A DNA stretch of 64,000 nucleotides. It comes from an uncultured Gammaproteobacteria bacterium. Lineage in GTDB: Bacteria; Patescibacteriota; Patescibacteriia; UBA2591; UBA6264. The notes below the pieces were generated by a model, which saw only the letters and a program-made list of their open reading frames with translations, was not told where the DNA came from and did not search any database. The position numbers and the translations under genes are program-made. The DNA is taken from the NCBI GenBank assembly GCA_964596735.1, contig CAZQVF010000001.1:9924-73923 (forward strand), in the 5' to 3' direction. This document shows, one piece after another, positions 12,525 through 28,127 of this stretch (the first letter of the stretch is position 1; each line of letters opens with the position of its first letter).

Positions 12525-12541
12525 ATTCATTTAATTAAATT

Positions 12542-14290: not shown

Positions 14291-14307
14291 ATTATTAAAT
14301 TATATTT

Positions 14308-15381: not shown

Positions 15382-15409
15382 GAATGCAAAATCTTGTCAT
15401 ATTTAAAAG

Positions 15410-16621
15410 ATGTTATTTGAATACAAGGCAAAAAATTTAAAAGGAGAAACAGTTGAAGGAACTCTGGAAGCAATTAATCAGGAAGCAGCGGTCAATGTTT
15501 TGGCCGGCCGCAAAATGATTATTATTTCTTTAAAAGAATCTGGGGCGCTCCCTATTTGGCGTCGGCCTTTACGTATCGCTTTTTTGGAAAGAGTTAATCC
15601 AAAAGACATGGTTTTTATGTCTCGTCAGCTTTCCGTTATGGTTTTGGCCGGATTGCCATTAGTTAAGGCTCTGGAGGTTTTGGCCCGCCAGACAAGCAAG
15701 GCCTTTTTAAAGCAGGTGATTAATATTATCGCCGAAGACGTACGGGGAGGAACAAGATTTTCTACGGCCTTGGCTAAGTATCCTAAAATTTTTGATGATT
15801 TTTATGTTAATATGGTCCGAGCTGGAGAAACAGCTGGGAAGCTTGATGAGGTTTTAAATTATTTAGCTAATGAACAAGAAAAGAGTTATGATTTAATGAG
15901 CAAGATAAGGGGAGCAATGATTTATCCGGTTTTTGTTATTGTTGGGGTTGTTGGCGTAATGATTTTAATGATGGTTTTTGTTATTCCTCAGTTAACTGGT
16001 ATTTTAAAAGAATCAGGCGTGGCCTTGCCATTGCCAACCCTTGTTTTAATTAAAACTAGTGAGATTTTAAAGCAATATTTTGTTCTTGTTATGCTTGGGG
16101 CCATTGGGGCTGGTTTTGGCATAAGAGCTTTTTTCAAAAGCAAATCAGGCAAAGCCGCCTTAGACAGTCTTCTTTTAGGGCTTCCAGTTTTTGGTAATTT
16201 ATTTCAACAAGTCTATCTGGTTCGTTTCTCCCGCAGTCTCTCAACCTTAATTATTGGCGGCATTCCTTTAACTTCAGCTTTAAGAATAGTAGCCGGAGTA
16301 GTTAGTAATAATGTTTATAAAAATTTAATCCTTGATGCTGTTATTGATGTAGAAGAGGGTCGTTCAATAAGTAGTGCTTTTATGGATGAACCTCAGGTGC
16401 CTAAGATGCTCCCTCATTTAATGGCGATTGGAGAAGAAACTGGTCGGCTTGATGAGGTTTTACAAAAGATTGCTGATTTTTATTCTCGAGAAGTAGAAAA
16501 TATTTTAGCAAAATTAGTTACTCTACTTGAACCAATTATTATCATCTTCTTGGGTGTAGTTGTCGGCGGTATGGTTGCCTCTATTATCTTGCCTATGTAT
16601 AAATTAGCTTCTGCCTTTTAA
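15410..16621 (+). CDS. pilC: Type IV pilus inner-membrane platform protein PilC (GspF family)
   Basis: A 403-aa protein with two GspF repeats and three TM segments. It begins MLFEYKAKNLKGETVEG, typical for PilC. Confidence 0.88.
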   Translation: MLFEYKAKNLKGETVEGTLEAINQEAAVNVLAGRKMIIISLKESGALPIWRRPLRIAFLERVNPKDMVFMSRQLSVMVLAGLPLVKALEVLARQTSKAFLKQVINIIAEDVRGGTRFSTALAKYPKIFDDFYVNMVRAGETAGKLDEVLNYLANEQEKSYDLMSKIRGAMIYPVFVIVGVVGVMILMMVFVIPQLTGILKESGVALPLPTLVLIKTSEILKQYFVLVMLGAIGAGFGIRAFFKSKSGKAALDSLLLGLPVFGNLFQQVYLVRFSRSLSTLIIGGIPLTSALRIVAGVVSNNVYKNLILDAVIDVEEGRSISSAFMDEPQVPKMLPHLMAIGEETGRLDEVLQKIADFYSREVENILAKLVTLLEPIIIIFLGVVVGGMVASIILPMYKLASAF

Positions 16622-17577: not shown

Positions 17578-18427
17578 TTACTGATTACTTATTTTGCTGG
17601 TTAAGGTGTAAGGAAGAACCGACTGACTGATTAAGACATAGGCATAAACAGTGGTTTTTACTTCTTTAATGCCAATGAAGGGGATGGGTAAAGGGACAAT
17701 GGCATCAACTTGTGCCATTAAAGGAAAGTGATATTGATCGTCACTTATCCAAACCTTAATATGATTTTCTTCACGGAAATAGTGTATTTTTTCCATAAGA
17801 GAGATGTCACACTTAAGGGCTTGGTATGCTTCATTTTCAATGTTGACGATTTCTTTTTGTTTAATAATCAGGGGCATTATTTTAGGAATGACCTGATTAT
17901 TATTCTTTCCTAAAATAGACAAATAATGAACATCATTAACCAATCCCTCCCTTGTTCTTAATTGCATGCCCAAGGTTATCACCTCTTGCAGATCTGTTGG
18001 AGAAAAGCTGGAATCAACAACCACTTTTTCAAAAAAAGGTGATTGCCCTGTCTGCAAGTACTTGTAGGTCATTTCCCGGCCGTTTTTAGTCAGATAAGTC
18101 CAACTAGTATCTGGTGAAGTAAGTAGATCGTCTGAAGCAGCAAAGCGATAGGTTTTTTTAAACTGACCAGTATAACGATTAAACTCAGTATAAATAGTAT
18201 CAACCGTAGCCACCAGCCCTCGGGCTAAACCTATTGTCTGTGAAGTCAGATAAACTGTCATTAAAGAGTCATTTTCTAGTGAAAGACCAATCTCAATATC
18301 AATGACCGCCACTTTTAGTGTTAGCCAGCGAACCTCGGCTGATATTTTTTCTCCAATGAATTTGTCAAATGATGTTTGTCCCCAAACTATTTTAACCAAC
18401 AAAAAAAGAACGATTATTTTTTTCAAG
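17578..18427 (-). CDS. Secreted hypothetical protein (signal peptide)
   Basis: The likely start is a TTG at 18427 preceded by GGAGG (aaaaaaGGAGGattgtaccTTG), giving LKKIIVLFLLVKIVWGQ, a signal peptide. The ORF-track Met at 18498 would add 24 non-signal residues. Confidence 0.5.
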
Positions 18428-18558
18428 GTACAATCCTCCTTTTTTAATATATTATATATTATAAATGAGAGAGGGTTTTTGTCAAATACCATAGACATGA
18501 AAAGCGGGGATGTGGATAACTTTATTGACCTAAATTATTTACCTGTTAATATGTACCT

Positions 18559-18577
18559 ATACCTATGGTCGGGGTAT
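18559..18577 (+). promoter_or_regulatory. Candidate CsoR operator (ATACC-N7-GGGGTAT pseudo-palindrome) overlapping a TATATAAT -10 element
   Basis: ATACCTATGGTCGGGGTAT lies 25 nt upstream of csoR. It resembles the GC-rich ATACC...GGGGGTAT operators bound by CsoR at copZA promoters. TATATAAT at 18576-18583 overlaps it. Confidence 0.5.
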
Positions 18578-18601
18578 ATATAATTTATTTATTTTAAAAA
18601 T

Positions 18602-18874
18602 ATGATTACTCAAAAACAAAAAACACTTATTAATTTTAAAAAAGCGCAAAGCCTAATGGTAAAAATTATTAAGATGACAGAAGACAATGAATATTGTATT
18701 GATATTATGCAGCAAAACTTGGCCGTGATAGGACTTTTAAAATCAGCCCATCAGATGTTAATGGAGGGACATTTAAATACTTGTTTTAAAAGAGCAATGG
18801 GAACAAAGAATGAGAAACGAAAAAAAGAAATGATTCAAGAGATTTTAAAAGTTACTAAATTATCTAATAAATAA
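18602..18874 (+). CDS. csoR: CsoR/RcnR-family (DUF156) metal-sensing transcriptional repressor
   Basis: A 90-aa protein. LMVKIIKMTEDNEYCIDIMQQNLAVIGLLKSAHQMLMEGHLNTCF matches the CsoR W-X-Y-Z fingerprint (Cys...His...Cys). It is the first gene of a copper operon ending in copA. Confidence 0.8.
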   Translation: MITQKQKTLINFKKAQSLMVKIIKMTEDNEYCIDIMQQNLAVIGLLKSAHQMLMEGHLNTCFKRAMGTKNEKRKKEMIQEILKVTKLSNK

Positions 18875-18877
18875 ATT

Positions 18878-19663
18878 ATGTTTAAAAAATATTTACCATT
18901 TATTATTATTGGTCTTGTTATAGTGATTGGTGGAGGAATAACATTTGGCCAAGGAGGGGTTGAAAAGAGTCAGGAGAATAACACTGAAGCTCAGTGTGAA
19001 ATCAATGAGATGGTTTTTTATTATCTTGATTCTTGTAGCTGGTGCCAAAAAGTTAAAAGCGAAAAAACTATTTCAAAATTAGAATCCTTGGGTGTGAGAG
19101 TCGAACAGATTAGAGCAAACGTTGGTCCGGTTCGTCATCAATTTCAAGGAGTGCCAACTTTTGTTATCAATGAAAATGTATATAGCGGTTACAAAACATT
19201 TGAGGAATTAAAAGAATTGTTAAAATGTTCAGAAGATAACCAAGTCTTGTCTCAACTTGAATCTCCCAAGTTTGAATTTATTGGAGAGAACGGAGAAAAT
19301 GTTTCTTTAATAAATAGACAGATAAGTTTAACGGCTAATATTCTTGATGATAATTTGGCTCATTATTACAACACAGAACTTCCCAGTGGAAAAACAGTCT
19401 ACTTTTTTGTGGTTAAAGACAAAAACGGTATTTATCGAGCGGCTGCCAATGCCTGCCAGGTTTGTTTTGATTCAAGGATGGGCTTTCGTCAACAGGGTGA
19501 TTTTATGGTCTGTAACACCTGTGGAAATAAATATCCTTTGGAAAAGATTGCCACAGAAAAAGGCGGATGTAATCCAGGCCCAATTAACCCAGATCTAAAA
19601 GTTAAAGATGGAAAGATAACCATTAAACAGGCAGAACTGGAGGAAATCGCCGAACTCTTCTAA
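18878..19663 (+). CDS. Membrane-anchored thioredoxin/glutaredoxin-fold protein with a C-terminal double-CxxC (zinc-ribbon-like) domain
   Basis: An N-terminal TM, then CSWC ... GVPTFVIN (a Trx-fold cis-Pro loop), then CQVCFDS...CNTCGNKYP...GGCNPGP. The gene is 4 nt downstream of csoR. Confidence 0.55.
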   Translation: MFKKYLPFIIIGLVIVIGGGITFGQGGVEKSQENNTEAQCEINEMVFYYLDSCSWCQKVKSEKTISKLESLGVRVEQIRANVGPVRHQFQGVPTFVINENVYSGYKTFEELKELLKCSEDNQVLSQLESPKFEFIGENGENVSLINRQISLTANILDDNLAHYYNTELPSGKTVYFFVVKDKNGIYRAAANACQVCFDSRMGFRQQGDFMVCNTCGNKYPLEKIATEKGGCNPGPINPDLKVKDGKITIKQAELEEIAELF

Positions 19664-19667
19664 ATAT

Positions 19668-20048
19668 ATGAAAAAACTTGTTATAATTTTTCTTATACTT
19701 TTAATCAGCGGCTTTATTGGATATTTAATTTTTAATATTCAAAATCCAAGCTTTGAAAAATTAAGTCTAATAGAGAAGTATGAAAAAGTTATTAGTCAAA
19801 GAAACCAGGCGATTGCTCAGGCAGTAAAGGCAGGAGTATATAAGTGTTGTATAAATCCCCCCTGCACCATGTGTTATTCAGAAGCTAATCAATGGAATAA
19901 CCATAAGGCAGGTACCTGCGCTTGTGATGATTTGATTGCTCAAGGGAAAGAACCATGTCCTCAATGCAAAAGAGGTTTGATTAGAGATACAGGTTCTTCT
20001 TGTGAAATTATTAGTGGAACCTGTGAACCAGAAATTAACAACCAATAA
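19668..20048 (+). CDS. Small membrane-anchored cysteine-rich protein (12 Cys in about 90 residues), putative metal-binding
   Basis: An N-terminal TM followed by YKCCINPPCTMCYSEANQWNNHKAGTCACDDLIAQGKEPCPQCKRG...SSCEIISGTCEP. It lies inside the CsoR-CopA operon. Confidence 0.5.
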   Translation: MKKLVIIFLILLISGFIGYLIFNIQNPSFEKLSLIEKYEKVISQRNQAIAQAVKAGVYKCCINPPCTMCYSEANQWNNHKAGTCACDDLIAQGKEPCPQCKRGLIRDTGSSCEIISGTCEPEINNQ

Positions 20049-20056
20049 ATAACAAT

Positions 20057-20392
20057 ATGAAATTAATAACTAAAATATTTTTAATGTCTTTCTTTGTTTT
20101 TTATCCCGGATTATTATTAGCTCATGGCGGGACTGAAGTTGCCCACCACCATATGATGGGAGCAATGTTTGGTTCAGGTGGTTATGGTTTTTTTGGCATG
20201 GGGTGGATAATGATAATATTCTGGTTGGTGGTTATAACGGGAGTGATTGGGTTGATTAAGTGGGTTTTTGCTGAAAAAAGACCTGAAATTAAAGGTGAAT
20301 CAGCCCTGGATATTTTAAAAGAACGTTATGCCAAAGGAGAGATAAATGAAGACGAATATAAGCAGAAGAAAAAAGATTTAATTAATAGTTAA
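20057..20392 (+). CDS. His/Met-rich membrane protein with a C-terminal SHOCT domain, putative Cu-binding
   Basis: A signal/TM, then HGGTEVAHHHMMGAMFGSGG (a His/Met cluster), a second TM, and a C-terminal LKERYAKGEINEDEYKQKKKDL (SHOCT-like). Confidence 0.5.
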   Translation: MKLITKIFLMSFFVFYPGLLLAHGGTEVAHHHMMGAMFGSGGYGFFGMGWIMIIFWLVVITGVIGLIKWVFAEKRPEIKGESALDILKERYAKGEINEDEYKQKKKDLINS

Positions 20393-20416
20393 ACATAAAA
20401 TTAAAAAAGTTAAATT

Positions 20417-21142
20417 ATGTCAAATAAAGAAAATTATCAAAAAAATAAGGGATCAAAAAATGATTTTATTTTAGGTATAACCACAGCCATTGCTGTCATT
20501 GCCATTATTGGTTTTTTTATTGTCTTGTCCCTGTATTTAAATCAAGACAAGAAAGTATTGGCAGAAGCATTACCAGCTGCTCCCAGTAAACCAGAAGTTG
20601 AAAAACAGGTCCTGCCAGCTAAGTTAGAAGTTCAATTAAGCAGAGATGATCATTTTAGAGGTGACCCCAATGCCTTAGTGACTGTTGTGGAATTTTCTGA
20701 TTTTCAATGTCCTTATTGTTCAAGTTTTCATCAGACCATGTTAAAAATAACCCAAGATTTTCCAAAAGAGGTAAAATGGGTTTATAAACATTTTCCCCTA
20801 GATTCTATTCATCCGTTTGCCAGAAAAGCAGCTGAGGCTTCAGAATGCGCGGCTGATCAAAACAAATTTTGGGAATACACTGACGAGTTATTTGTTAAGC
20901 AGAGAGAAATCAGCCCCGCCCTTTTTACAGAAATAGCCGGGACAACAGGGTTAGACAGGAATCAATTTAATAGTTGTTTGGAGTCGGGTAAATATGCTTC
21001 AAGGGTAGAGGCAGATTATCAACAGGGCATAAAAGCAGGGGTGCGGGGAACACCAGGTAGTTTTGTGAATGGACAATCCTTAGCCGGGGCTGTTCCTTAT
21101 AATGAAATGAAATCTATGATTAATGAATTACTAAATGAGTAA
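20417..21142 (+). CDS. DsbA/BdbD-family thiol:disulfide oxidoreductase (membrane-anchored)
   Basis: An N-terminal TM, FSDFQCPYCSSFH (CPYC active site), and GVRGTPGSFVNGQ (cis-Pro loop). Confidence 0.8.
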   Translation: MSNKENYQKNKGSKNDFILGITTAIAVIAIIGFFIVLSLYLNQDKKVLAEALPAAPSKPEVEKQVLPAKLEVQLSRDDHFRGDPNALVTVVEFSDFQCPYCSSFHQTMLKITQDFPKEVKWVYKHFPLDSIHPFARKAAEASECAADQNKFWEYTDELFVKQREISPALFTEIAGTTGLDRNQFNSCLESGKYASRVEADYQQGIKAGVRGTPGSFVNGQSLAGAVPYNEMKSMINELLNE

Positions 21143-21386
21143 AAAAATAAGGACAGTTTTTTTATCTATCCTCTCTTTTTTATCAGGAGGCTTAGGGATT
21201 GTTGGTCTTTCTGGCTGGTGTTGTACTTTAACCGGAGCCGCTATTCTGTCTTTATTGGGATTGGCTTCATTTAGTGTTTTTCTCGTGTCTTATAATAAGT
21301 TATTGTTACTTATCTCAATAATTTTTTTAATCCTGGCGATCATGTCCTTTGTTAAACATAAAAAAGCAAAAAGTTGCTTAAAATAA
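21135..21386 (+). CDS. Small two-TM membrane protein with a vicinal Cys pair (GWCC)
   Basis: An 83-aa protein in the operon, overlapping the dsbA-like stop by 8 nt. It has two hydrophobic helices and a CC pair within a Gly-rich turn. Confidence 0.4.
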   Translation: MSKKIRTVFLSILSFLSGGLGIVGLSGWCCTLTGAAILSLLGLASFSVFLVSYNKLLLLISIIFLILAIMSFVKHKKAKSCLK

Positions 21387-21389
21387 ACT

Positions 21390-22883
21390 ATGCTCAAAAA
21401 AATAGAAATTCAAATTAAAGGAATTCATTGCAAAAGCTGTAAAACCTTAATTGAAACAGAAGTAGATGTTTTACCTGGAGTTAAAGATGTTGATGTTAAT
21501 CATCAGACTGGGGAATGCCAGATAATTTTTGACGATCAAAAGGTTTCTCAAAGTAAGATTTTCAAGACCATTGAAAAATTAAATTATCAGGTTAAAGATT
21601 CATCAACAAAAGAAAAGAAAAAACAAAAACAAGTTTCTAAAAAATTTATCATCGCCGGAATTTTATTAGCGGTTTTTGTCCTTGGTTATTTTCTTATTAA
21701 ACACCTGGGCCTTTTAGAAACCCTTTCTAGACTTAATGACCAGAAAATAAGTTATTGGTTAATCTTTCTAATCGGTGTTTTAGTCAGCTTTCATTGCATA
21801 GGAATGTGCGGGGGGTTAGTGGTCGCTTATACAAGCCGGCACCAGATTAAAGAGGAAAAGAAGACTAATCTTTCTTTGCCTCATTTACAGTATAATGTAG
21901 GGAGAATGATTTCTTATACAGTGGTTGGCGGGATTTTAGGTGGTTTTGGTTCTTTTTTTGGTATAAACCCGACCTTTACCGGATCTATTATTTTAGTAGC
22001 TGGTGTTTTTATGGTTTTAATGGGACTATCTTTAATGACTAATTTTAAATGGCTAGAGAAGATTAAATTAAGAACCCCATTTTTTATTGCCAAATTTCTT
22101 TATAAACAACGTCATACGCGCAAACCAAAGGGGCCATTTATTATTGGTTTGCTCAATGGTTTTATGCCCTGTGGGCCCTTGCAAGCAATGCAGATTTATG
22201 CCCTGGCTTCAGGCAGCATTACCCAGGGGGCCTTATCAATGGGCGTTTATGGCTTAGGCACGGTTCCTTTAATGTTTGGTTTTGGTAGTTTTATTTCCTT
22301 GATTAGCCAGGATAAAATTAAACAAGTAATGAAGTTTTCTGGCTTAGTGGTTATTGTTTTAGGTCTAATAATGTTTAATCGAGGGTTGGTAAACTTTGGT
22401 TATGGTTTTCGTAGTTTTATTCCGCGAGAAGCAACCAGTCAGACAGAGTATTTAGTTACTGGTGATGTTGAAGAATATCAGGTAGCAAGAATGGATTTAA
22501 CTTATCGCGGTTATTCTCCTAATGTTATTTTTGTTAAAAAAGATATTCCGGTACGATGGATTATTAATGTTAAACAGATGTCTGGCTGTACAGATGAAAT
22601 TATCATGCCTGAGCATAACATTAAAAAGCCTCTGGAATATGGTGAAAATATTATTGAATTTGTGCCTAAAAAATTGGGGAATCTTAAATTTAGTTGTTGG
22701 ATGCAAATGGTTTGGGGAAAGTTTGTGGTTGTTGAAAAAGATAAACAGCCAACTTCACAAGATTTATATAAAGAGTCCCTTGACTTGCCTCAGGGCGGCA
22801 CTTGTGATGGCGGAGGAACATGTGGCGGTACTTGCGGGGTGCCTACCTGCGGATGCAGTAGCCGTATCAGAGGGTCTCGATAA
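21390..22883 (+). CDS. HMA (heavy-metal-associated) domain fused to a DsbD/CcdA- or TauE-like polytopic permease, a cupredoxin-like domain and a Gly/Cys-rich tail
   Basis: The N-terminus IKGIHCKSCKTLIE is an HMA fold with CxxC. The membrane core carries the paired motifs FHCIGMCGG and FMPCGPLQAM. A beta-rich C-domain (SGCTDEIIMPEH...FSCWMQMVWGKFVV) follows. The tail is GGTCDGGGTCGGTCGVPTCGCSS. Confidence 0.65.
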   Translation: MLKKIEIQIKGIHCKSCKTLIETEVDVLPGVKDVDVNHQTGECQIIFDDQKVSQSKIFKTIEKLNYQVKDSSTKEKKKQKQVSKKFIIAGILLAVFVLGYFLIKHLGLLETLSRLNDQKISYWLIFLIGVLVSFHCIGMCGGLVVAYTSRHQIKEEKKTNLSLPHLQYNVGRMISYTVVGGILGGFGSFFGINPTFTGSIILVAGVFMVLMGLSLMTNFKWLEKIKLRTPFFIAKFLYKQRHTRKPKGPFIIGLLNGFMPCGPLQAMQIYALASGSITQGALSMGVYGLGTVPLMFGFGSFISLISQDKIKQVMKFSGLVVIVLGLIMFNRGLVNFGYGFRSFIPREATSQTEYLVTGDVEEYQVARMDLTYRGYSPNVIFVKKDIPVRWIINVKQMSGCTDEIIMPEHNIKKPLEYGENIIEFVPKKLGNLKFSCWMQMVWGKFVVVEKDKQPTSQDLYKESLDLPQGGTCDGGGTCGGTCGVPTCGCSSRIRGSR

Positions 22884-22895
22884 TTAATTATAAAT

Positions 22896-23984
22896 ATGTC
22901 TGAATCTAAACAAAAACAGGTTGTTGTTGGTATGTCTGGGGGCATTGATTCTTCCATGGCCCTGGTTTTACTTAAAAAACAAGGGTGGCAGCCAATAGGT
23001 GTTTCTTTAAAATATGCGGTTTGGCAAGATAAAAAAAATCTATTACGAGAAAACGTTTGTTGCAGTACTCAGTCTTTTAAAATCGCCAGAGACATTTGTC
23101 AAAAACTAAAGGTTCCTTATTATATCTCAGACGTATCAACAGAGTTTAAAAAGCAGGTAATTGATTATTTTATTAGAGAATTAAAAAACAAAAAAACACC
23201 TAATCCCTGTATTATTTGTAATCGTTACCTTAAGTTTAAAAAACTTTTTGAATGGGCTAAAGAACATAACATTCAATATGTGGCCACAGGACATTATGCT
23301 CGTTTAAGAAAAAATCCTCAGACTCAAAAATATGAACTCTTAAGAGCTAAGGATAAAGAAAAAGACCAAACCTATTCTTTGTCTTTTTTACCTCAAAAAT
23401 GGCTTAAAAATATTGTTTTTCCCTTGGGTGATTTTCTCAAGCCAGAAATTTATAAAATAGCTAAGAAATATGATTTTGACGTTTTTCTTAAACAAAAAGA
23501 AAGTCAGGATTTTTGTTTTGTCGCCGGCAAGTCAATGAAATGTTTTTTAGAAAAAGAAATAGGAACAAAAGCAGGTTTGATTAAAGATAAAAAGGGAAAT
23601 ATTTTAGGCAAACACCAGGGACTTCATTTTTATACTATTGGCCAGAGAAAAGGAATTAATTTGCCAAAGGGACCATATTTTGTCGCAGAAATGGATAAGA
23701 AGGATAATATTTTAATAGTGACAAGAGATAATAATAAACTTTGCCAAAAACAGGTATTTGTTTCCCCTTGTCATTTTATTTCTGGAACATCTCCTCAAGG
23801 AAAAATTCAGGTTCAAGCAAAAATCCGTTATCGTCAAGAATTAAGCCGGGCGACTCTTTTTCCTATTTCAAAAACTAAAATAAAATTAGTATTTAATAAA
23901 CCACAGAGAGCAATTACTCCTGGGCAATTTGCTGTCTTTTATCAAAAAGATGTTTGTTTGGGAGGAGGAAGAATCATTTTATGA
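22896..23984 (+). CDS. mnmA: tRNA-specific 2-thiouridylase MnmA
   Basis: PP-loop [12 protein letters not shown], catalytic cysteines and a C-terminal beta-barrel. It is 362 aa. Confidence 0.9.
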
Positions 23985-26206
23985 AAACAAAAACTATTTT
24001 AAAAATTAAAGGAATGCATTGTGCTAGTTGTTCAGCTAGCATTGAGAGAGCATTAAAAAAACAATCAGGCATTGTTTCAATTGGTGTTAATCTTGCTACA
24101 GAAAAAGCAAACCTGGAGTTTGATCCAGAGAAAACAAATTTAAACAAAATTCAAAAGATAATAAAAAAAATGGGCTATCAAGCTGAGGAAGGGCATTTTT
24201 TAGAAAAGATAAAAGATGAAGAAGCAGGAAAAATTAAAAAATTAAGAAATACATTTTTATTTTCTTTGATTTTAGGACTACCTCTTTTCTATTTAGTCAT
24301 GGGAAAAATGATTGGCCTGCCCGTACCTAATTTACCATTGCGTTTAAATCTGATTATTCAACTGGTTTTGACTACGGCAATTATGGCTTTAAACTCACAC
24401 ATATATATTTCTGGTTTTAAGAAATTAATTCAGCGAAATCCCAATATGGACTCTTTAATAGAGACAGGGACCTTGGCCGCTTATTTTTATAGCTTAGTTA
24501 TATTTATTAGTATTTGGCGACAACCAAGCCTTTCTCAAGAAGTCCATGTTTATTTTGAGAGTGCGGCTTTTATTCTGGTTTTTATTTCTCTGGGAAAATA
24601 TTTAGAAGCTTTAACCAAGGGAAAAACAAGCCAGGCAATTAAAAAGTTGATTGGCTTACAACCCAAGCAGGCAACAATAATAAAAGATGGCGAGGAAATA
24701 CAAGTCCCTATTCCAGAGGTCAAAGTCAATGATATTGTTTTGGTTAAACCAGGGGAAAAAATTCCAGTTGATGGTTTAGTGGTAAATGGTTATTCCGGGG
24801 TTGATGAAAAAGCAATTACTGGAGAAAGTATTCCTGTTGAAAAAAATGTTGATGATAAAGTAATTGGAGCAACCATTAACAAGACAGGCGTTTTGCAGAT
24901 TAAAGCAAAACATGTTGGCGAAGAAACGATGCTGGCTCAGATTATCAAAATTGTTGAAGAGGCAATGGGATCTAAAGCACCAATCCAGGTTTTAGCTGAC
25001 AAGGTTTCTTTTTATTTTGTTCCAGCAGTAATTGGTCTGGCCATTTTAGCGTTTTTTGTTTGGATTCTTTTGGGTCAAGCTTTTGTTTTTGCTTTAACGG
25101 TTTTTGTGGCTGTTTTAATTATTGCCTGTCCTTGTTCTTTGGGCTTGGCTACTCCGACCGCAGTGATGATGGGAACAGGTTTGGCGGCCAAACAAGGCAT
25201 TTTAATTAAAAGCAGTCAGGCTTTAGAAATGGCGCAAAAAATAAGCATGATTGTTTTTGACAAGACTGGAACCTTAACAAAGGGCGAACCGGTTGTCACT
25301 GATATTATTGAGATTAATAATAAAAAGGAGCAGATTTTACAAATGGCCGGTTCTCTTGAAAAAAACTCAGAACATCCTTTGGCCCAGGCAATGGTGCAAA
25401 TGGCTAAAAAACAAGAAATTAAATTATTTGAAGTTCAGAAATTTGAGGCCATTCCAGGACAAGGAGTAGAGGCTTATTTAGATAAACAAAAAATATTTTT
25501 AGGAACTAAAAAGTTAATAAAGAATCATCAAATCAAAACAGATTTTATTAAAGAACAAATGGCCGGCCTGGAAAAACAAGGGAAAACAGTCATGATCTTA
25601 GGAAGGGATCAAGAGGTTATGGGCATTATTGCCGTGGCCGATACTTTAAAAGAATATTCAAAACAAGCCATTAAAATTTTGCATAAATTAGGCAAAAAAA
25701 CAGCCATGATTACTGGTGATAATGAAAGAACAGCCAGAGCAATAGCTGAACAATTAGGCATTGATTATGTTTTAGCTGGTGTTTTACCTCAAGAAAAAGC
25801 AAAAGAAATTAAAAGATTACAAGATCAAGGAGAAAAAGTAGCCATGGTCGGAGACGGCATTAATGATGCTCCAGCCTTGGCCCAGGCTGATTTAGGCATT
25901 GCTTTGGGCTCAGGGACTGATGTGGCCATGGAAACAGGGGAAATTGTTTTAATCAAAGATGATTTGCGAGATGTGGTTAGAGCAATTGACTTAAGCAAAT
26001 ATACTTTAAGAAAAATTAGACAAAATCTTTTTTGGGCCTTTTTTTACAATAGCGTCGGCATTCCTATTGCCGCTGGCGTGCTTTATCCTTTTACTGGCTG
26101 GCTTTTAAGTCCGATTTTTGCTGCAGCCGCCATGGCTTTTTCTTCTGTCAGTGTTGTTTCCAATGCCCTTTTAATGAGATTGTACAAACCAAGAACAATT
26201 AAGTAA
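23981..26206 (+). CDS. copA: Copper-translocating P1B-type ATPase CopA
   Basis: The start is the ATG at 23981 (ATGA overlap with the mnmA stop), preceded by GGAGGAGG. It has [15 protein letters not shown], the transmembrane metal site CPC, phosphorylation site DKTGTLT and hinge GDGINDAP. Confidence 0.93.
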
Positions 26207-26225
26207 ATATTCTATATCCATATAT

Positions 26226-26251
26226 AAAAATCCCTGAACAAGGGATTTTTT
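26226..26251. terminator. Bidirectional rho-independent terminator
   Basis: AAAAATCCCT-GAACA-AGGGATTTTTT: a perfect hairpin flanked by an A-tract and a T-tract, between the copA 3' end and the tRNA-Pro 3' end. Confidence 0.7.
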
Positions 26252-26254
26252 ATT

Positions 26255-26330
26255 TGGTCGGGGTGAGAGGAATTGCACCTCCGATCTCTGTCTCCCGAAG
26301 ACAGCGCCTTAGCTGCTAGGCTACACCCCG
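26255..26330 (-). tRNA. tRNA-Pro (anticodon CGG)
   Basis: Reverse-complement fold: acceptor CGGGGUG/CACCCCG, D-arm GCCU/AGGC, anticodon stem CUGUC/GACAG with loop UUCGGGA, T-arm GGAGG/CCUCU, discriminator A, encoded CCA. It is 76 nt. Confidence 0.85.
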
Positions 26331-26436: not shown

Positions 26437-27597
26437 ATGTTCCGACTTTTTCATTTAACCTATTCTTTTACTCTTTCTCGTGATTTTAAGATTCTTTGTT
26501 TTTATCAAACAATGATTGCTTTGGCCAATGGCATGATGGGTTTGTTTTTACCCATTTTTTTATTTCAGCAGTTTAATTCTTCAATTTATTGGGTAATCAT
26601 TTTTTATTTAATTGGCCATCTTCTTTACGCTCTTTTAGTTCCTTTTGGAGCAATGATGATGAATAAGATTGGATTAAGAAGGTCAATGCTTATTGGCCGG
26701 AGTATGTGTATTCCTTTTTATGTTTTTCTTTATTTTTTTCATAATGATCCTTTGCTTTTTGCTATCTTAGCCAATGTTGTTTTATTGTTTTTCCGTTTAT
26801 TGTATTGGGTTCCCTACCATGTTGATTTTGTCCGTTTTACAGATGGTAAACACCGGGGGAGACAAATGTCCTATTTAGCCGTCTTGGGTTATTTGGTTAG
26901 TATTGGTGGGCCATTATTGGCAGGAATGTTGTTAACTCAATTCAGTTTTAATCCTTTATTTATTATTGTGATTATTATTAATGTTTTTGCTCTTATTCCT
27001 TTGGGGAAATTAAGTGAACCTAGGGCCAAATTTGAATTTTCTTATAAACAAACATTTAAAGAATTATTTAAAGAAGGCAATCGCCGTTTAAATGTGGCTT
27101 GTTTTTCTGATGGGGCCCAGACCATGGTCGGAGTAATGATTTGGCCCATTTTTATTTATCAGATTTTAAAACATGAATATATGGCTGTGGGCGCCGTAAC
27201 CGCCTTAATTATTATCGGGACTATTCTTTTTCAGTTATTAATAGGAAAATATACTGATGAATATCCCAAAAGAAAATTAATGCATATTGGTTCTTCATTT
27301 TATGCCTTGGGCTGGCTGGCCAAGGCTTTTGTGGCCACGGCTTTTCAGGTCTTTGTCGCTGGTGCTTTTCATAGTTTAATGGCCATTATCTTGCGCACTC
27401 CTTTTGATGCCCTGCGTTATGAACAAATTGGCAATACTGGTTCATATGTTGATGAATACACTGTTTTAAGGGAGATGAGCATAAACATGGGCTGGGTTTT
27501 AATGGGCGTTTTGCTAATGATTTTAATTGGATTAGTTGGTTTGCAAATAGCTTTTTTAATTGCCGCTGCCTTTAGTTTATTGGTTAATCTATTATGA
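26437..27597 (+). CDS. Polytopic membrane transporter, probably MFS-type
   Basis: About 12 predicted TM helices over 386 aa. No soluble-domain motifs are present. The call rests on topology only. Confidence 0.5.
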   Translation: MFRLFHLTYSFTLSRDFKILCFYQTMIALANGMMGLFLPIFLFQQFNSSIYWVIIFYLIGHLLYALLVPFGAMMMNKIGLRRSMLIGRSMCIPFYVFLYFFHNDPLLFAILANVVLLFFRLLYWVPYHVDFVRFTDGKHRGRQMSYLAVLGYLVSIGGPLLAGMLLTQFSFNPLFIIVIIINVFALIPLGKLSEPRAKFEFSYKQTFKELFKEGNRRLNVACFSDGAQTMVGVMIWPIFIYQILKHEYMAVGAVTALIIIGTILFQLLIGKYTDEYPKRKLMHIGSSFYALGWLAKAFVATAFQVFVAGAFHSLMAIILRTPFDALRYEQIGNTGSYVDEYTVLREMSINMGWVLMGVLLMILIGLVGLQIAFLIAAAFSLLVNLL

Positions 27598-28127
27598 AAA
27601 GTCTGCTCTTGCATATTTGTTGTGCCTGTTGTGCCACTATTCCCATTGAATTACTGCAAGATCAATTTAAAATAAAACTACTTTGGTATAATCCAAACAT
27701 TTATCCTAAAAAAGAATATAAAAAGAGGTTAAAGCAAGTAAAGAAATTAAAAAAAATATACAAGTTAAGTCTTGTTAAGGCCCCTTATCATTTAAAAGAC
27801 TGGCTGGCTTTGACCAAGGGGTTAGAACAAGAACCAGAAGGAGGAAAAAGATGTGATGTTTGTTTTCAGATGCGATTACAAAAAACAGCGGAGATAGGGC
27901 TTAAAAAAAGCTTTGACTATTTTGCCACTACCTTAACAATTGGTCCGCAGAAAAAAGCAGAAAGGGTTAATCAGATAGGTGAAGACTTGGCAAAAAAGTA
28001 TGACATTAAGTTTTATTCAGCTGATTTTAAAAAGAAAGACGGATTTAAAAAAAGCCTTGATTTGAGCAAAAAATATAATTTTTACCGGCAGAATTATTGC
28101 GGATGTATTTATTCAATAATTAATTAA
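27594..28127 (+). CDS. queH: Epoxyqueuosine reductase QueH (DUF208)
   Basis: The N-terminus LLLHICCACCATIP and C-terminus YRQNYCGCIYS match the QueH Cys-ligand pattern. It is 177 aa. Confidence 0.8.
   Translation: MKSLLLHICCACCATIPIELLQDQFKIKLLWYNPNIYPKKEYKKRLKQVKKLKKIYKLSLVKAPYHLKDWLALTKGLEQEPEGGKRCDVCFQMRLQKTAEIGLKKSFDYFATTLTIGPQKKAERVNQIGEDLAKKYDIKFYSADFKKKDGFKKSLDLSKKYNFYRQNYCGCIYSIIN

What the first reader, a model, noticed from the sequence alone, without database searches (positions are those of the whole stretch)
18559..26206. Nine-gene CsoR-controlled operon coupling copper export to an extracytoplasmic thiol/disulfide and metal-binding toolkit
A candidate CsoR operator (ATACC-N7-GGGGTAT overlapping TATATAAT) precedes csoR. 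Eight tightly spaced genes follow, with gaps of -8 to 25 nt, all on the plus strand. In order they are: a membrane thioredoxin-fold protein with an extra double-CxxC domain; a 12-Cys small protein; a His/Met-rich SHOCT protein; a CPYC DsbA; a GWCC mini-membrane protein; an HMA-permease-cupredoxin fusion; mnmA; and copA. The array is far richer than a canonical csoR-copZ-copA operon. It resembles a dedicated envelope copper-handling and disulfide-repair module. Copper catalyses non-native disulfides, which would explain the oxidoreductase content.
Basis: partly seen in the sequence, partly recalled or inferred. Interest (0 to 1): 0.6.

Follow-up and report, generated by a model that had tools for sequence, protein, structure and literature searches.

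The report
Copper-defence operon of a CPR bacterium
This is a copper-sensing (CsoR-repressed) detoxification operon of an uncultured Patescibacteria (CPR) bacterium: the usual copper pump CopA is paired with an uncharacterised but widespread membrane protein that carries copper-binding domains on both faces of the membrane, plus a variable set of outward-facing cysteine-rich and thiol-oxidoreductase proteins.

Summary
The nine plus-strand ORFs (18602-26206) and their domain content are real, and they are packed with gaps of -8 to +24 nt. One strong hairpin follows copA. No internal terminator or promoter signal exceeds chance.

- The operator is a 23-bp nested palindrome, TACCTATACC-N3-GGTATAGGTA (18554-18576). 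It lies just downstream of a TTGACC-16-TAATAT promoter. It recurs once per locus upstream of csoR in 13 other CPR loci.
- The small Cys protein has 10 Cys, not 12; 8 are invariant.
- The "cupredoxin" is a CupA-type Cu(I) site (E 5e-14, all four ligands conserved), predicted to face outward.
- mnmA is not part of the conserved set. It comes from a neighbouring iscS-iscU-mnmA cluster.

Comparative loci show a core of csoR, the HMA/DsbD-like/CupA-like protein (g7) and copA. DUF2318, 8-Cys, DsbA-like and SHOCT genes recur in shuffled order. Relatives of g7 sit beside P-type ATPases in Clostridia, spirochaetes, Actinobacteria and Deinococcus.

Best reading: a Cu(I)-induced envelope copper-handling module. 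Whether g7 moves Cu(I) or reducing equivalents is unresolved. I rate it a new variant of a known kind, of moderate interest.

The parts
18525..18552 (+). Likely sigma-70 promoter of the operon: TTGACC (18525-18530), 16 nt spacer, TAATAT (18547-18552), with TG before the -10.
   Evidence: scan. Searches show TTGACA-16/17-TAnnAT in the same position, directly 5' of the operator, in most of 13 related CPR loci.
18554..18576 (.). CsoR operator candidate: nested palindrome TACCTATACC-TAT-GGTCGGGGTA. The invariant core is ACC-N3-ACC-N3-GGT-N3-GGT. It covers roughly +1 to +25 of the transcript.
   Evidence: unique in the window, and 0 of 100 shuffles match; one copy per locus, 37-53 nt (once 121 nt) upstream of csoR in 13 other loci, and none elsewhere in 1.42 Mb; alignment with its invariant columns.
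18602..18874 (+). g1, csoR: Cu(I)-sensing repressor of 90 aa with ligands C32, H57 and C61.
   Evidence: alignment to M. tuberculosis CsoR (2HH7) and Geobacillus CsoR (4M1P).
18878..19663 (+). g2: membrane-anchored protein predicted to face outward. It has a small Grx/Trx-like domain (CSWC53, cis-Pro VP92) and an FtrD-like/DUF2318 domain (CQVC193, CNTC212, C231).
   Evidence: The DUF2318 part recurs next to g7 homologues in CPR and in 22 of 62 non-CPR loci.
19668..20048 (+). g3: membrane-anchored, outward-facing Cys-rich protein with 10 Cys. The invariant pattern is CC-x4-C-x2-C...C-x-C...C-x2-C. No Pfam family matches; it is remotely linked to PCYCGC.
   Evidence: Genomic linkage to copper loci is shown.
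20057..20392 (+). g4: signal/anchor helix, outward His/Met-rich segment (HGGTEVAHHHMMGAM), TM helix, then a cytoplasmic SHOCT domain.
   Evidence: It recurs in CPR loci and near some clostridial g7 homologues (L043, L054, L072).
20417..21142 (+). g5: membrane-anchored DsbA-like thiol:disulfide oxidoreductase (CPYC98, TP212).
   Evidence: It recurs in CPR copper loci.
21135..21386 (+). g6: 83-aa membrane protein with a vicinal Cys pair (C29, C30) in the first hydrophobic stretch and C81 in a basic C-terminal tail.
   Evidence: Only 5 homologous clusters exist. A 73%-identical homologue again lies between the DUF2318 gene and g7 (L168). Cys positions are conserved in all homologues.
21390..22883 (+). 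g7: 497-aa fusion. HMA domain (CxxC; residues 1-70; 21390-21599). One extra TM helix. Six-TM DsbD_2 core (residues 125-326; 21762-22367) with HCxxMC (135-140) and MPCGP (259-263). CupA-type cupredoxin-like domain (residues 360-449; 22467-22736; C400, C436, M438, M440). Cys/Gly-rich tail (22791-22880).
   Evidence: CupA match at 5e-14 with aligned ligands; residue conservation in 83 family members; charge alternation places HMA inside and the CupA-like domain outside. C261 aligns with the active-site Cys of DsbD/CcdA.
22896..23984 (+). g8, mnmA: tRNA 2-thiouridine(34) synthase. It sits inside the transcription unit but is not part of the conserved copper gene set.
   Evidence: It is absent from 17 of 18 g7-anchored CPR loci. 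It lies between g7 and copA only in the window's own lineage (L105, L107, L115). Elsewhere it belongs to iscS-iscU-mnmA.
23981..26206 (+). g9, copA: P1B-1 Cu(I)-exporting ATPase of 741 aa, with an N-terminal HMA (GMHCASC), CPC383, DKTGT427, N-x6-YN-x4-P at 682 and MxxSS at 718.
26226..26250 (.). Terminator-like hairpin (10 bp stem) with U/A tracts on both sides. It lies between the copA stop and the 3' end of a convergent tRNA-Pro(CGG) gene (26255-26330, minus strand).

Best explanation
This is one Cu(I)-inducible transcription unit.

Regulation. At low copper, CsoR sits on the nested TACC/GGTA palindrome that starts 1-2 nt after the -10 box and blocks transcription. Cu(I) bound at C32/H57/C61 releases it. 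This is inferred from homology and conservation.

Export. CopA then pumps cytoplasmic Cu(I) outward (family assignment shown; activity inferred).

The conserved partner, g7. It takes the place that copZ holds in canonical csoR-copZ-copA operons, and it carries soft-metal ligands in every module. These are a cytoplasmic HMA CxxC, a DsbD/CcdA-type six-helix core with invariant membrane-embedded Cys, His and Met (HCxxMC, MPCGP), an outward CupA-type binuclear Cu(I) site (C, C, M, M), and an outward Cys/Gly tail. I commit to g7 being a membrane-integrated Cu(I) relay that works with CopA. Its HMA exchanges Cu(I) with CopA's HMA, like a tethered CopZ. The core passes Cu(I) as a thiolate-bound ion to the outward CupA-like domain.

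The accessories. The outward-facing proteins finish the job outside the membrane. The 8-Cys protein g3 and the His/Met segment of g4 buffer Cu(I). DsbA-like g5 and the Grx/DUF2318 protein g2 keep exposed thiols in the right redox state. g6 is a lineage-specific helper of g7. mnmA is a passenger.

Shown: gene content, residue conservation, operator and promoter conservation, synteny, CupA homology, DsbD homology.

Inferred: topology, direction of transfer, and every biochemical activity.
For: Regulator and operator:
- The C-H-C ligands align with solved CsoRs.
- The 23-bp palindrome is unique in the window. It is conserved once per locus upstream of csoR in 13 other loci and absent elsewhere in 1.42 Mb. 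TTGACA-17-TAnnAT lies directly 5' of it.
- TAC/GTA dyads flanking C/G runs are the known CsoR operator signature (PMC3902906).

Single unit:
- Gaps run from -8 to +24 nt.
- No + strand terminator appears before 26226, and promoter-like sites are at chance.

Core:
- In 18 g7-anchored CPR loci, csoR is immediately upstream in 17 and copA follows g7 in 17 (usually adjacent, in some after one to three intervening genes).
- About half of 62 non-CPR loci carry copA within 10 kb, and 22 carry a DUF2318 gene.
- Actinobacterial and Deinococcus plasmids have DsbD_2+Cupredoxin_1 followed by an HMA gene, preceded by a P-type ATPase on the two actinobacterial plasmids.

g7 ligands:
- C136, P260, C261, G262 and C436 are invariant. 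H135, M139, C140 and M259 occur in 80 of 83 members. C400, M438 and M440 occur in 82 of 83.
- The C-terminal domain matches S. pneumoniae CupA (2MRY/4F2E) at 5e-14, with Cys74, Cys111, Met113 and Met115 aligned. CupA is an established Cu(I) chaperone for CopA (PMC7558416).

Topology and chaperone role:
- Loop net charges alternate +4.4, +0.8, +3.7, 0, +7.4, +0.6, +2.5, -0.8.
- Homologues that lack HMA also lack the extra first helix (L016; plasmid homologues).
- No free copZ exists in the 64-kb window.

Accessories:
- In g3-anchored, dereplicated loci with at least 2.5 kb on both sides (n=15), g7 is present in 14, copA in 13, g2 in 12, csoR in 11 and DsbA in 5.
- A g3 relative is fused to a membrane plus HMA-like protein (P0279), and distant relatives carry His/Met-rich linkers.
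- Prior computational inference placed COG2836 and DUF2318 in Firmicutes CsoR regulons.
Against: - No experiment exists on any member of the g7, g3 or g6 families. None was found in four literature searches.
- The g7 core is homologous to DsbD/CcdA, which move electrons and not metal. Across the deepest homologues only one Cys per half (C136, C261) is universal, and that is exactly the DsbD/CcdA pattern. This fits the rival reading equally well.
- A ligand-exchange relay has no obvious energy source for outward transport against the cell's tight Cu(I) buffering.
- S. pneumoniae CupA is considered to act on the cytoplasmic side, whereas the g7 domain is predicted to face outward.
- The topology rests on the positive-inside rule and on homology only. 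The AlphaFold model of g7 was poor (pLDDT 52).
- Accessory genes are absent from many loci, so their link to g7 function may be loose.
- Co-transcription is inferred from spacing, not from RNA data.
Confidence: 0.5

Rival explanations
1. Same operon, different job for g7. Its DsbD/CcdA-like core carries reducing equivalents, not copper, from cytoplasmic thioredoxin to the outside. There it keeps the Cys pair of its own CupA-like domain reduced, along with the partner proteins g5 (DsbA-like), g2 (Grx-like/DUF2318) and g3, so that they can bind Cu(I) or repair copper-damaged thiols. This would be a monoderm, CsoR-controlled analogue of the ScsB/ScsC/ScsD system. The HMA domain would then be only a tethered CopZ or a copper-sensing regulatory domain.
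For: - DsbD_2 and DsbD_TM hits, and NCBIfam DsbD at 1.4e-5 over residues 112-333.
- The family HMM aligns the g7 'MPCGP' Cys261 with E. coli DsbD Cys304 (mature Cys285) and with the CcdA 'PC' motif.
- Only C136 and C261 in the membrane, and C400 and C436 outside, are conserved in the deepest homologues: two plus two Cys, as in DsbD beta plus alpha/gamma.
- DsbA-like and Trx-like genes recur in the loci.
- The copper-induced Scs system is a precedent (PMC10907172).
- ScsC binds Cu(I) (PMC8900818, title listed).
- DUF2318 works with thioredoxins in C. jejuni FetA-F.
Against: - His and Met flanking the membrane Cys (80 of 83 members) are not needed for thiol-disulfide exchange, but they are typical Cu(I) ligands.
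- An HMA domain is fused to, or encoded next to, essentially every family member.
- Many loci have g7 without any Trx or DsbA-like client.
- The DsbD similarity is weak: 22 bits with high compositional bias. hhalign against a single CcdA sequence found nothing.
Confidence: 0.3
2. g7, with g6, works inward like the Mer transport proteins. The outward CupA-like domain captures a thiophilic metal outside, namely Cu(I), Ag(I) or Hg(II). The membrane Cys pass it in, and the cytoplasmic HMA hands it to CopA or another sink. The module would then clear metal from the cell surface or supply copper, or its real substrate is not copper.
For: - Distant DsbD_2+Cupredoxin_1 homologues with adjacent HMA genes lie beside merA or merB on Tsukamurella and Deinococcus plasmids.
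- Ligand-exchange relays run thermodynamically toward the tightly buffering cytoplasm.
- g6 resembles MerF in size, in its vicinal Cys pair in the first helix, and in its C-terminal Cys. The pairwise BLASTP E-value is 0.002, against a MerF sequence recalled from memory.
Against: - The regulator has the Cu(I) C-H-C fingerprint, and derepression by excess metal argues for defence rather than uptake.
- The constant partner is a Cu(I)-type P1B-1 exporter.
- No merA or merB lies in any CPR locus examined.
- The known actinobacterial transporter MerH is a MerC-family protein unrelated to g7.
- The MerF similarity is a weak match between hydrophobic segments.
Confidence: 0.08
3. There is no dedicated toolkit. 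Only csoR, g7 and copA are copper genes. g2-g6 are general envelope disulfide-formation or housekeeping genes that, like mnmA, merely share a long co-directional transcription unit, as is typical of small CPR genomes.
For: - mnmA shows that unrelated genes can sit inside this unit.
- The accessory genes are missing from most g7-anchored CPR loci.
- CPR genomes have long same-strand gene runs. Genes for pilus assembly, Fpg, an MFS transporter and QueH flank this cluster.
Against: - When anchored on g3 rather than on g7, 14 of 15 well-flanked, dereplicated loci contain g7 and 13 contain copA. g2, g5 and g4 recur in different orders, which is the signature of functional rather than inherited linkage.
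- DUF2318 and SHOCT genes also neighbour g7 in Clostridia and spirochaetes.
- g3 relatives are fused to HMA-like domains or carry His/Met linkers.
Confidence: 0.1

Closest known systems
Canonical CsoR-regulated copZ-copA / csoR-copA-copZ operons (B. subtilis, L. monocytogenes, S. lividans, M. tuberculosis)
   Same: A CsoR with C-H-C ligands that is autoregulated. An operator built from TAC/GTA dyads around C/G runs, overlapping the promoter. A P1B-1 CopA as the effector.
   Different: There is no free CopZ. Its slot is taken by a 497-aa membrane protein, g7. Five further envelope genes and mnmA are inserted. The operator has two nested dyads (ACC-N3-ACC-N3-GGT-N3-GGT) instead of the single TAC-N9-GTA.
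CupA / CopA(N-terminal cupredoxin) of Streptococcus pneumoniae (PDB 2MRY, 4F2E, 4F2F)
   Same: The g7 C-terminal domain is homologous (5e-14). It keeps the Cys, Cys-x-Met-x-Met ligands of the binuclear Cu(I) site. It is membrane-tethered and encoded next to copA.
   Different: CupA is a single-helix-anchored chaperone reported from only a few streptococci. It is regulated by CopY, pairs with a cupredoxin-type CopA domain, and is held to act on the cytoplasmic side. Here the domain is fused behind a seven-helix DsbD-like membrane region and is predicted to face outward. CopA has an HMA-type domain, and the regulator is CsoR.
ScsABCD (suppressor of copper sensitivity) system of Salmonella, Proteus and Caulobacter
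   Same: A copper-induced set made of a DsbD-family membrane protein, a DsbA-like protein, a membrane-anchored Trx-like protein and a small membrane protein with Cys. It protects the envelope under copper stress.
   Different: Scs is proteobacterial and periplasmic, and it is controlled by CpxRA. ScsB has eight helices with Ig-like alpha and Trx-like gamma domains and no HMA or CupA-like domain. Scs is not linked to copA. No sequence-level orthology was shown here.
DsbD / CcdA transmembrane electron transporters
   Same: A six-helix core of the same Pfam clan. One conserved Cys lies in the first and one in the fourth core helix, and the 'PC' motif aligns with DsbD Cys285 and the CcdA motif.
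   Different: g7 adds His, Met and Cys ligands next to both membrane Cys, has metal-binding domains on both faces, and is genomically bound to a copper ATPase rather than to cytochrome c maturation or DsbC/G.
COG2836 (HMA+DsbD_2) and DUF2318 members of the inferred gut-Firmicutes CsoR meta-regulon (Hobbs et al. 2016, PMC4938975)
   Same: The same protein families, predicted to lie behind CsoR sites and sometimes in operons with copA. Clostridial homologues of g7 are 34-40% identical, with adjacent DUF2318, CupA-like, copZ and copA genes.
   Different: That work was a statistical regulon inference. It treated the proteins as possible chaperones. It did not note the CupA-type site, the DsbD-type Cys pair or the topology. 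The CPR version adds g3, DsbA-like, SHOCT and g6, and fuses a Grx-like domain to DUF2318.
C. jejuni FetMP-FetABCDEF iron-uptake cluster (FetA DUF2318; FetE/F thioredoxins)
   Same: An outward DUF2318 domain with two CxxC motifs, working alongside membrane-associated thioredoxin-fold proteins in a metal-transport cluster.
   Different: That is an iron-uptake system with an Ftr1-type permease, P19 and an ABC transporter. FetA has eight helices and a YHS domain. There is no CsoR or CopA.

Membership tests
CsoR (Cu(I)-sensing branch of the CsoR/RcnR family) | Homology to PF02583, the all-helical repressor family | tested here: met
   PF02583 at 4.7e-14 and 53 bits against a cutoff of 22.8. Matches solved CsoRs 2HH7 at 8e-9 and 4M1P at 6e-8.
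CsoR (Cu(I)-sensing branch of the CsoR/RcnR family) | x-C-H-C ligand fingerprint (Cys36, His61, Cys65 of M. tuberculosis CsoR) | tested here: met
   C32, H57 and C61 align residue for residue with 2HH7.
CsoR (Cu(I)-sensing branch of the CsoR/RcnR family) | Pseudopalindromic operator with TAC/GTA dyads and C/G tracts at its own or the copA promoter | tested here: met
   TACCTATACC-N3-GGTATAGGTA is conserved upstream of csoR in 14 loci. The dyad spacing differs from the published TAC-N9-GTA.
CsoR (Cu(I)-sensing branch of the CsoR/RcnR family) | Cu(I)-dependent release from DNA | not testable with these tools
   This needs EMSA or anisotropy with and without Cu(I).
CopA, P1B-1 Cu(I)/Ag(I) ATPase | DKTGT, CPC in TM4, N-x6-YN-x4-P in TM5, M-xx-SS in TM6, and an N-terminal HMA CxxC | tested here: met
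   DKTGT427, CPC383, [14 protein letters not shown] at 682, MAFSS at 718, GMHCASC at 11. TIGR01511 at 640 bits against a cutoff of 397.
CupA-type Cu(I)-binding cupredoxin-like domain | Sequence homology to the CupA soluble domain | tested here: met
   phmmer of g7 residues 340-460 against 2MRY/4F2E gives 5.2e-14, and against the CopA N-terminal domain 4F2F gives 7.8e-10. The profile search gives 2.2e-17.
CupA-type Cu(I)-binding cupredoxin-like domain | Ligands of the binuclear site: Cys74, Cys111, Met113, Met115 | tested here: met
   These align with C400, C436, M438 and M440. They are conserved in 82-83 of 83 family members.
CupA-type Cu(I)-binding cupredoxin-like domain | Single N-terminal helix anchor with the domain acting on the cytoplasmic face, feeding a cupredoxin-type CopA domain | tested here: not met
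   The domain follows seven predicted helices and is predicted to face outward. This CopA has an HMA, not a cupredoxin, N-terminal domain. It is therefore a CupA-like domain, not a CupA orthologue.
DsbD/CcdA transmembrane thiol-disulfide transporters | Six-helix core with one essential Cys in the first and one in the fourth core helix | tested here: met
   DsbD_2 at 1.2e-50. C136 and C261 are invariant in 83 of 83 members. C261 aligns with DsbD C304 (precursor numbering) and the CcdA PC motif. The first-helix alignment was not recovered.
DsbD/CcdA transmembrane thiol-disulfide transporters | Electron transfer from cytoplasmic thioredoxin to outward Trx-fold partners | not testable with these tools
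   Biochemistry is needed. Trx-fold partners (g2, g5) are present in this locus but absent from many others.
Scs (suppressor of copper sensitivity) system | ScsB with tandem Ig-like alpha and Trx-like gamma domains, ScsC, ScsD and ScsA, under CpxRA control | tested here: not met
   g7 has HMA and CupA-like domains instead, and the regulator is CsoR. This is a functional analogy only.
DsbA-like oxidoreductase (g5) | Thioredoxin fold with CxxC and a cis-Pro loop | tested here: met
   Thioredoxin_4 at 6.8e-30, DSBA at 3.6e-22. CPYC98 and TP212.
DsbA-like oxidoreductase (g5) | A DsbB or VKOR re-oxidising partner | not tested
   None lies in the operon. The rest of the genome is not available.
DUF2318 / FtrD-like (g2 C-terminal domain) | Pfam PF10080 domain with two CxxC motifs | tested here: met
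   1.1e-26 and 93 bits against a cutoff of 26.3. CQVC193 and CNTC212.
PCYCGC family, PF13798 (g3) | Match to the Pfam model | tested here: inconclusive
   g3 itself gives no hit even at E up to 10. One of 42 distant relatives found with the g3 profile hits PF13798 at 1.5e-5.
MerF-like small thiol transporters (g6) | About 80 aa, two helices, a vicinal Cys pair in helix 1 and C-terminal Cys, with sequence homology | tested here: inconclusive
   Size and Cys layout fit. There is no Pfam or NCBIfam hit. The pairwise BLASTP E-value is 0.002, against a MerF sequence recalled from memory.

The most novel reading that the evidence does not exclude
The g7 family is a previously unrecognised class of copper transporter. 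A DsbD/CcdA-type 'elevator' fold would have been re-purposed to carry Cu(I) as a bis-thiolate across the membrane, with a CopZ-like domain inside and a CupA-like domain outside. It would act as the standard partner of CopA in anaerobic monoderm lineages (CPR, Clostridia, spirochaetes and others). In CPR it would be coupled to an extracellular Cu(I)-thiolate sink (the 8-Cys g3 family) and to dedicated thiol oxidoreductases. Its repeated placement next to iscS-iscU-mnmA would reflect co-protection of sulfur and Fe-S trafficking from copper.
Probability: 0.25. Interest if true: 0.75.

Novelty: new variant of a known kind. Interest (0 to 1): 0.5.

Why it matters
How monoderm and anaerobic bacteria handle Cu(I) once CopA has expelled it is poorly understood. 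They have no periplasm, no CusCFBA system and no oxygen for multicopper oxidases.

This locus points to a concrete, widespread candidate. The candidate is a membrane protein with copper sites on both faces and a DsbD-like core, always next to a copper ATPase.

The analysis also shows that the CupA-type Cu(I) site, reported from only a few streptococci, is common across phyla. It defines a conserved CPR CsoR operator that can be used to map copper regulons in uncultured Patescibacteria. It also gives a functional context to two families with no annotation (g3, g6) and to DUF2318.

The operon type itself, CsoR plus CopA, is ordinary.

Tried and rejected
- AlphaFold models. g3 reached pLDDT 70 overall and about 55 in the Cys domain. 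g7 reached pLDDT 52. Both are too poor for fold searches, so none was run.
- MerH as a relative of g7. Rejected: MerH is a MerC-family protein and hhalign gave probability 0.1.
- hhalign of a single CcdA sequence against the g7 alignment. Nothing was found. The DsbD link rests instead on Pfam and NCBIfam hits and on a family HMM.
- PDB sequence search with g2. No meaningful match.
- Pfam at E up to 10 for g3 and g6. Only noise.
- Second operator inside the cluster or elsewhere in the window. None.
- Free copZ, a second CupA-like gene, iscS or iscU in the window. None.
- Rfam scan of the window. Only four tRNAs, and no riboswitch or leader RNA.
- Literature searches for COG2836, DsbD_2 plus cupredoxin, and TauE plus CsoR. 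No experimental work on the family was found.
- Compositional island. GC content (0.29-0.39) is like the flanks.
- The idea that mnmA is a functional copper gene. Set aside, because it is absent from most loci.

Full report
**Origin.** The window is identical to JGI metagenome contig Ga0117912_1000106 (83.8 kb) and related contigs. The closest named relatives of its proteins are from the Patescibacteria group, Parcubacteria and Nealsonbacteria. The host is therefore an uncultured CPR bacterium. GC content across the cluster (0.29-0.39) matches the flanks.

**Observation.** Nine + strand ORFs run from 18602 to 26206, and the JGI gene calls agree. Pfam and NCBIfam give the following:
- g1: CsoR.
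- g2: a weak Grx/Trx-like stretch plus FtrD-like/DUF2318 (1e-26).
- g3: nothing.
- g4: SHOCT.
- g5: DsbA/Thioredoxin_4.
- g6: nothing.
- g7: HMA, DsbD_2 (1e-50) and Cupredoxin_1.
- g8: MnmA.
- g9: a copper P1B ATPase.

Gaps between genes are 3, 4, 8, 24, -8, 3, 12 and -4 nt. copA should start at ATG 23981, behind a GGAGGAGG Shine-Dalgarno sequence, not at TTG 23954. g3 has 10 Cys, not 12. CopA has CPC, DKTGT, N-x6-YN-x4-P and MxxSS, the P1B-1 Cu(I) signature. The CsoR residues C32, H57 and C61 align with the Cu(I) ligands of M. tuberculosis CsoR.

**Boundaries and continuity.** Promoter-like and terminator-like hits inside the cluster are at the level of shuffled sequence. The only strong + strand hairpin (10 pairs) is at 26226-26250. 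It lies between the copA stop and a convergent tRNA-Pro gene. Upstream, a divergent gene has its own perfect sigma-70 promoter. One transcription unit is therefore the simplest reading, but this is inferred.

**Operator and promoter.** I extracted the regions upstream of csoR from related loci and found a longer conserved element, TACCTATACC-N3-GGTATAGGTA.
- In the window it lies at 18554-18576, with 3 mismatches, and no shuffle matches it.
- At up to 4 mismatches it occurs exactly once in each of 13 other CPR loci. It lies 37-53 nt upstream of the csoR ATG, with one case at 121 nt. It occurs nowhere else in 1.42 Mb of fetched sequence.
- The alignment shows the invariant core ACC-N3-ACC-N3-GGT-N3-GGT. 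TTGACA-16/17-TAnnAT ends 1-7 nt before it.
- In the window the promoter is TTGACC (18525), 16 nt, TAATAT (18547-18552).

The operator therefore covers the transcription start. Published CsoR operators are TAC-N9-GTA dyads around G-tracts (PMC3902906). The CPR site uses the same TAC/GTA and C/G-run vocabulary but with two nested dyads.

**Synteny anchored on g7.** A search of 5.8 billion proteins returned 3,135 relatives at E <= 1e-10 among the 8,000 candidates scored. The best 120 are mostly from Patescibacteria and are named "sulfite exporter TauE/SafE family".
- In the 18 CPR loci, csoR is immediately upstream of g7 in 17 and copA follows g7 in 17, usually adjacent and in some after one to three intervening genes. 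g2, g3, g4 and g5 appear only in some of them (L005, L008, L009, L011).
- In the 62 other loci (Clostridia, Treponema, Flexilinea, Ignavibacteriales, Synergistales; 34-40% identity), about half have copA, often with copZ. Twenty-two have a DUF2318 gene. Many have an extra CupA-like gene next to g7.
- On actinobacterial and Deinococcus plasmids, shorter homologues (DsbD_2+Cupredoxin_1, no HMA) are followed by a separate HMA gene and, on the two actinobacterial plasmids, preceded by a P-type ATPase. On the Tsukamurella and Deinococcus plasmids merA or merB lies nearby.

**Synteny anchored on g3.** The family has about 283 clusters at 90% identity, with no Pfam domain and no name. A profile search of 1.84 billion representatives found only 98 clusters. 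Eighty metagenome loci carrying g3 homologues were screened with all window proteins. I dereplicated them to 49 and then required at least 2.5 kb on both sides, which left 15. Of these, 14 contain g7, 13 copA, 12 g2, 11 csoR, 5 the DsbA-like gene, 4 mnmA and 3 SHOCT. The genes are always on one strand but in several different orders. That pattern argues for functional linkage.

**g6.** It has only five homologous clusters. One homologue, 73% identical, again sits between the DUF2318 gene and g7.

**mnmA.** It lies between g7 and copA only in the window's own lineage (L105, L107, L115). In L146 the order is g7, iscS, iscU, mnmA. In L149 and L123 an iscS-iscU-mnmA cluster lies just upstream of the copper genes. 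So mnmA is a neighbour that copA was placed behind. It is not a member of the copper set.

**Anatomy of g7.**
- The C-terminal domain matches S. pneumoniae CupA (2MRY/4F2E) at 5e-14 and the cupredoxin-like N-terminal domain of pneumococcal CopA at 8e-10. The four ligands of the binuclear Cu(I) site align with C400, C436, M438 and M440. CupA is an established membrane-anchored Cu(I) chaperone, reported from only a few streptococci (PMC7558416).
- In an 83-member alignment spanning several phyla, C136, P260, C261, G262 and C436 are invariant. H135, M139, C140 and M259 are present in 80 members. C400, M438 and M440 are present in 82.
- A family HMM aligns the MPCGP Cys with the active-site Cys of E. 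coli DsbD (precursor C304) and with the CcdA PC motif. This agrees with the NCBIfam DsbD hit.
- Net loop charges alternate +4.4, +0.8, +3.7, 0, +7.4, +0.6, +2.5 and -0.8 across 16 homologues. That gives seven helices, with HMA inside and the CupA-like domain and Cys/Gly tail outside.
- This agrees with the N-out/C-out topology of the DsbD/CcdA core (established knowledge). It also agrees with the fact that homologues lacking HMA also lack the extra first helix.

**Location of the other proteins.** g2, g3 and g5 each have one N-terminal anchor helix preceded by Lys/Arg, so their domains should face outward. g4 has an outward His/Met segment and a cytoplasmic SHOCT domain.

**Mechanism.** The evidence supports a Cu(I)-derepressed envelope copper-handling module built around CopA and g7. 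For g7 itself, two readings survive.
- Cu(I) relay, which I prefer (about 0.45). Every module carries invariant soft-metal ligands. His and Met flank the membrane Cys. An HMA domain is fused to, or encoded next to, essentially every family member. g7 also replaces copZ in the operon.
- DsbD-like reductant conduit, as in the Scs system (about 0.3). It is favoured by the homology, by the universal pattern of two plus two Cys, and by the Trx-fold neighbours.

An inward, Mer-like direction or a different metal is possible but fits CsoR control poorly.

**The accessory proteins.** These are best read as outward Cu(I) buffers (g3, and the His/Met segment of g4) and thiol-state keepers (g5, g2). Some support comes from g3 relatives. 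One is fused to an HMA-like membrane protein, and distant ones carry His/Met-rich linkers. One distant relative also hits the PCYCGC family. DUF2318 also works with thioredoxins in C. jejuni FetA-F.

**Prior knowledge and novelty.** CsoR-CopA operons are textbook. COG2836 (HMA+DsbD_2) and DUF2318 proteins were already inferred statistically to belong to the CsoR regulon of gut Firmicutes (PMC4938975). I found no experimental study of the family. Five points appear to be new:
- The CupA-type site on these proteins.
- Their predicted outward orientation and the DsbD-type Cys pair.
- The breadth of the g7-ATPase partnership.
- The CPR operator.
- The CPR accessory set (g3, g5, g4, g6, and the Grx-DUF2318 fusion).

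I rate this a new variant of a known kind.

**Limits.** Both AlphaFold models were poor, so no fold search was made. Topology, co-transcription and all activities are inferred. The MerF comparison used a sequence recalled from memory. tblastn thresholds probably undercount the short SHOCT and g6 genes.

Noticed in passing
L149:1296-4761; L123:927-3563; L146:3211-5207; L047, L062, L029: A cysteine desulfurase - IscU - MnmA cluster lies directly beside g7-type copper loci in at least three CPR lineages and in some Bacillota. In the window only mnmA remains, wedged between g7 and copA (22896-23984). This could be old synteny, or it could be a link between copper defence and sulfur/Fe-S trafficking, which copper is known to poison.
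   Followed up: partly
L123:3666-5081; L141:164-1565: In two CPR loci csoR is replaced by a Penicillinase_R (BlaI/CopY-family) repressor plus a BlaR1-like M56 membrane peptidase, upstream of the same g7/DsbA/g3/DUF2318/copA set. The regulator has been swapped around a constant effector set.
   Followed up: partly
window 18577-23980 (25 nt upstream of each start codon): Eight of the nine genes have no recognisable Shine-Dalgarno sequence and only AT-rich leaders. Only copA has one (GGGAGGAGGAAG, inside the 3' end of mnmA).
   Followed up: no
window 17578-18498 (minus strand): The divergent upstream ORF (306 aa, no Pfam hit, not conserved in related loci) contains a perfect TTGACA-16-TATAAT promoter at 18485-18458 inside its annotated 5' end. 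Its true start is probably further downstream, near the LKKIIVLFLL signal-peptide-like segment.
   Followed up: no
window 26226-26330: tRNA-Pro(CGG) on the minus strand converges on copA. A single hairpin with A/T runs on both sides (26226-26250) could terminate both transcripts.
   Followed up: partly
L170:3423-10484; L171:5953-10260; L173:2274-6128: Actinobacterial and Deinococcus plasmids carry DsbD_2+Cupredoxin_1 followed by an HMA gene, preceded by a P-type ATPase on the two actinobacterial plasmids; the Tsukamurella plasmid also has merA and a multicopper oxidase, the Deinococcus plasmid merB and a MerR regulator, and the two actinobacterial plasmids have TlpA (Tsukamurella also CcdA) genes nearby. 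The wider family may serve mercury as well as copper.
   Followed up: partly
L018 (Nanoarchaeia MAG); L006, L010, L014 (MAGs labelled Gammaproteobacteria): Contigs with CPR-like csoR-g7-copA loci and the CPR operator are assigned to a DPANN archaeon and to Gammaproteobacteria MAGs. This suggests mis-binning or lateral transfer.
   Followed up: no
P0207; P0279: P0207 (191 aa) joins the C-terminal half of a CsoR to a g3-type protein, which may be a gene-call fusion of adjacent genes. P0279 (293 aa) joins a Cys-containing membrane region and an HMA-like domain to a g3-type domain.
   Followed up: no
L149:5044-6111: In one CPR locus an Fe/Mn superoxide dismutase and a plastocyanin/azurin-type cupredoxin are encoded immediately upstream of csoR.
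   Followed up: no
window about 12540-16620 and 26437-28127, and beyond 30600: The flanks hold type IV pilus / type II secretion genes (two T2SSE ATPases and a T2SSF protein), tRNA-Val, Fpg, an MFS transporter, QueH (another tRNA wobble-base enzyme) and the start of a surface protein of more than 2,300 aa. This is read from the JGI annotation of the identical contig.
   Followed up: no
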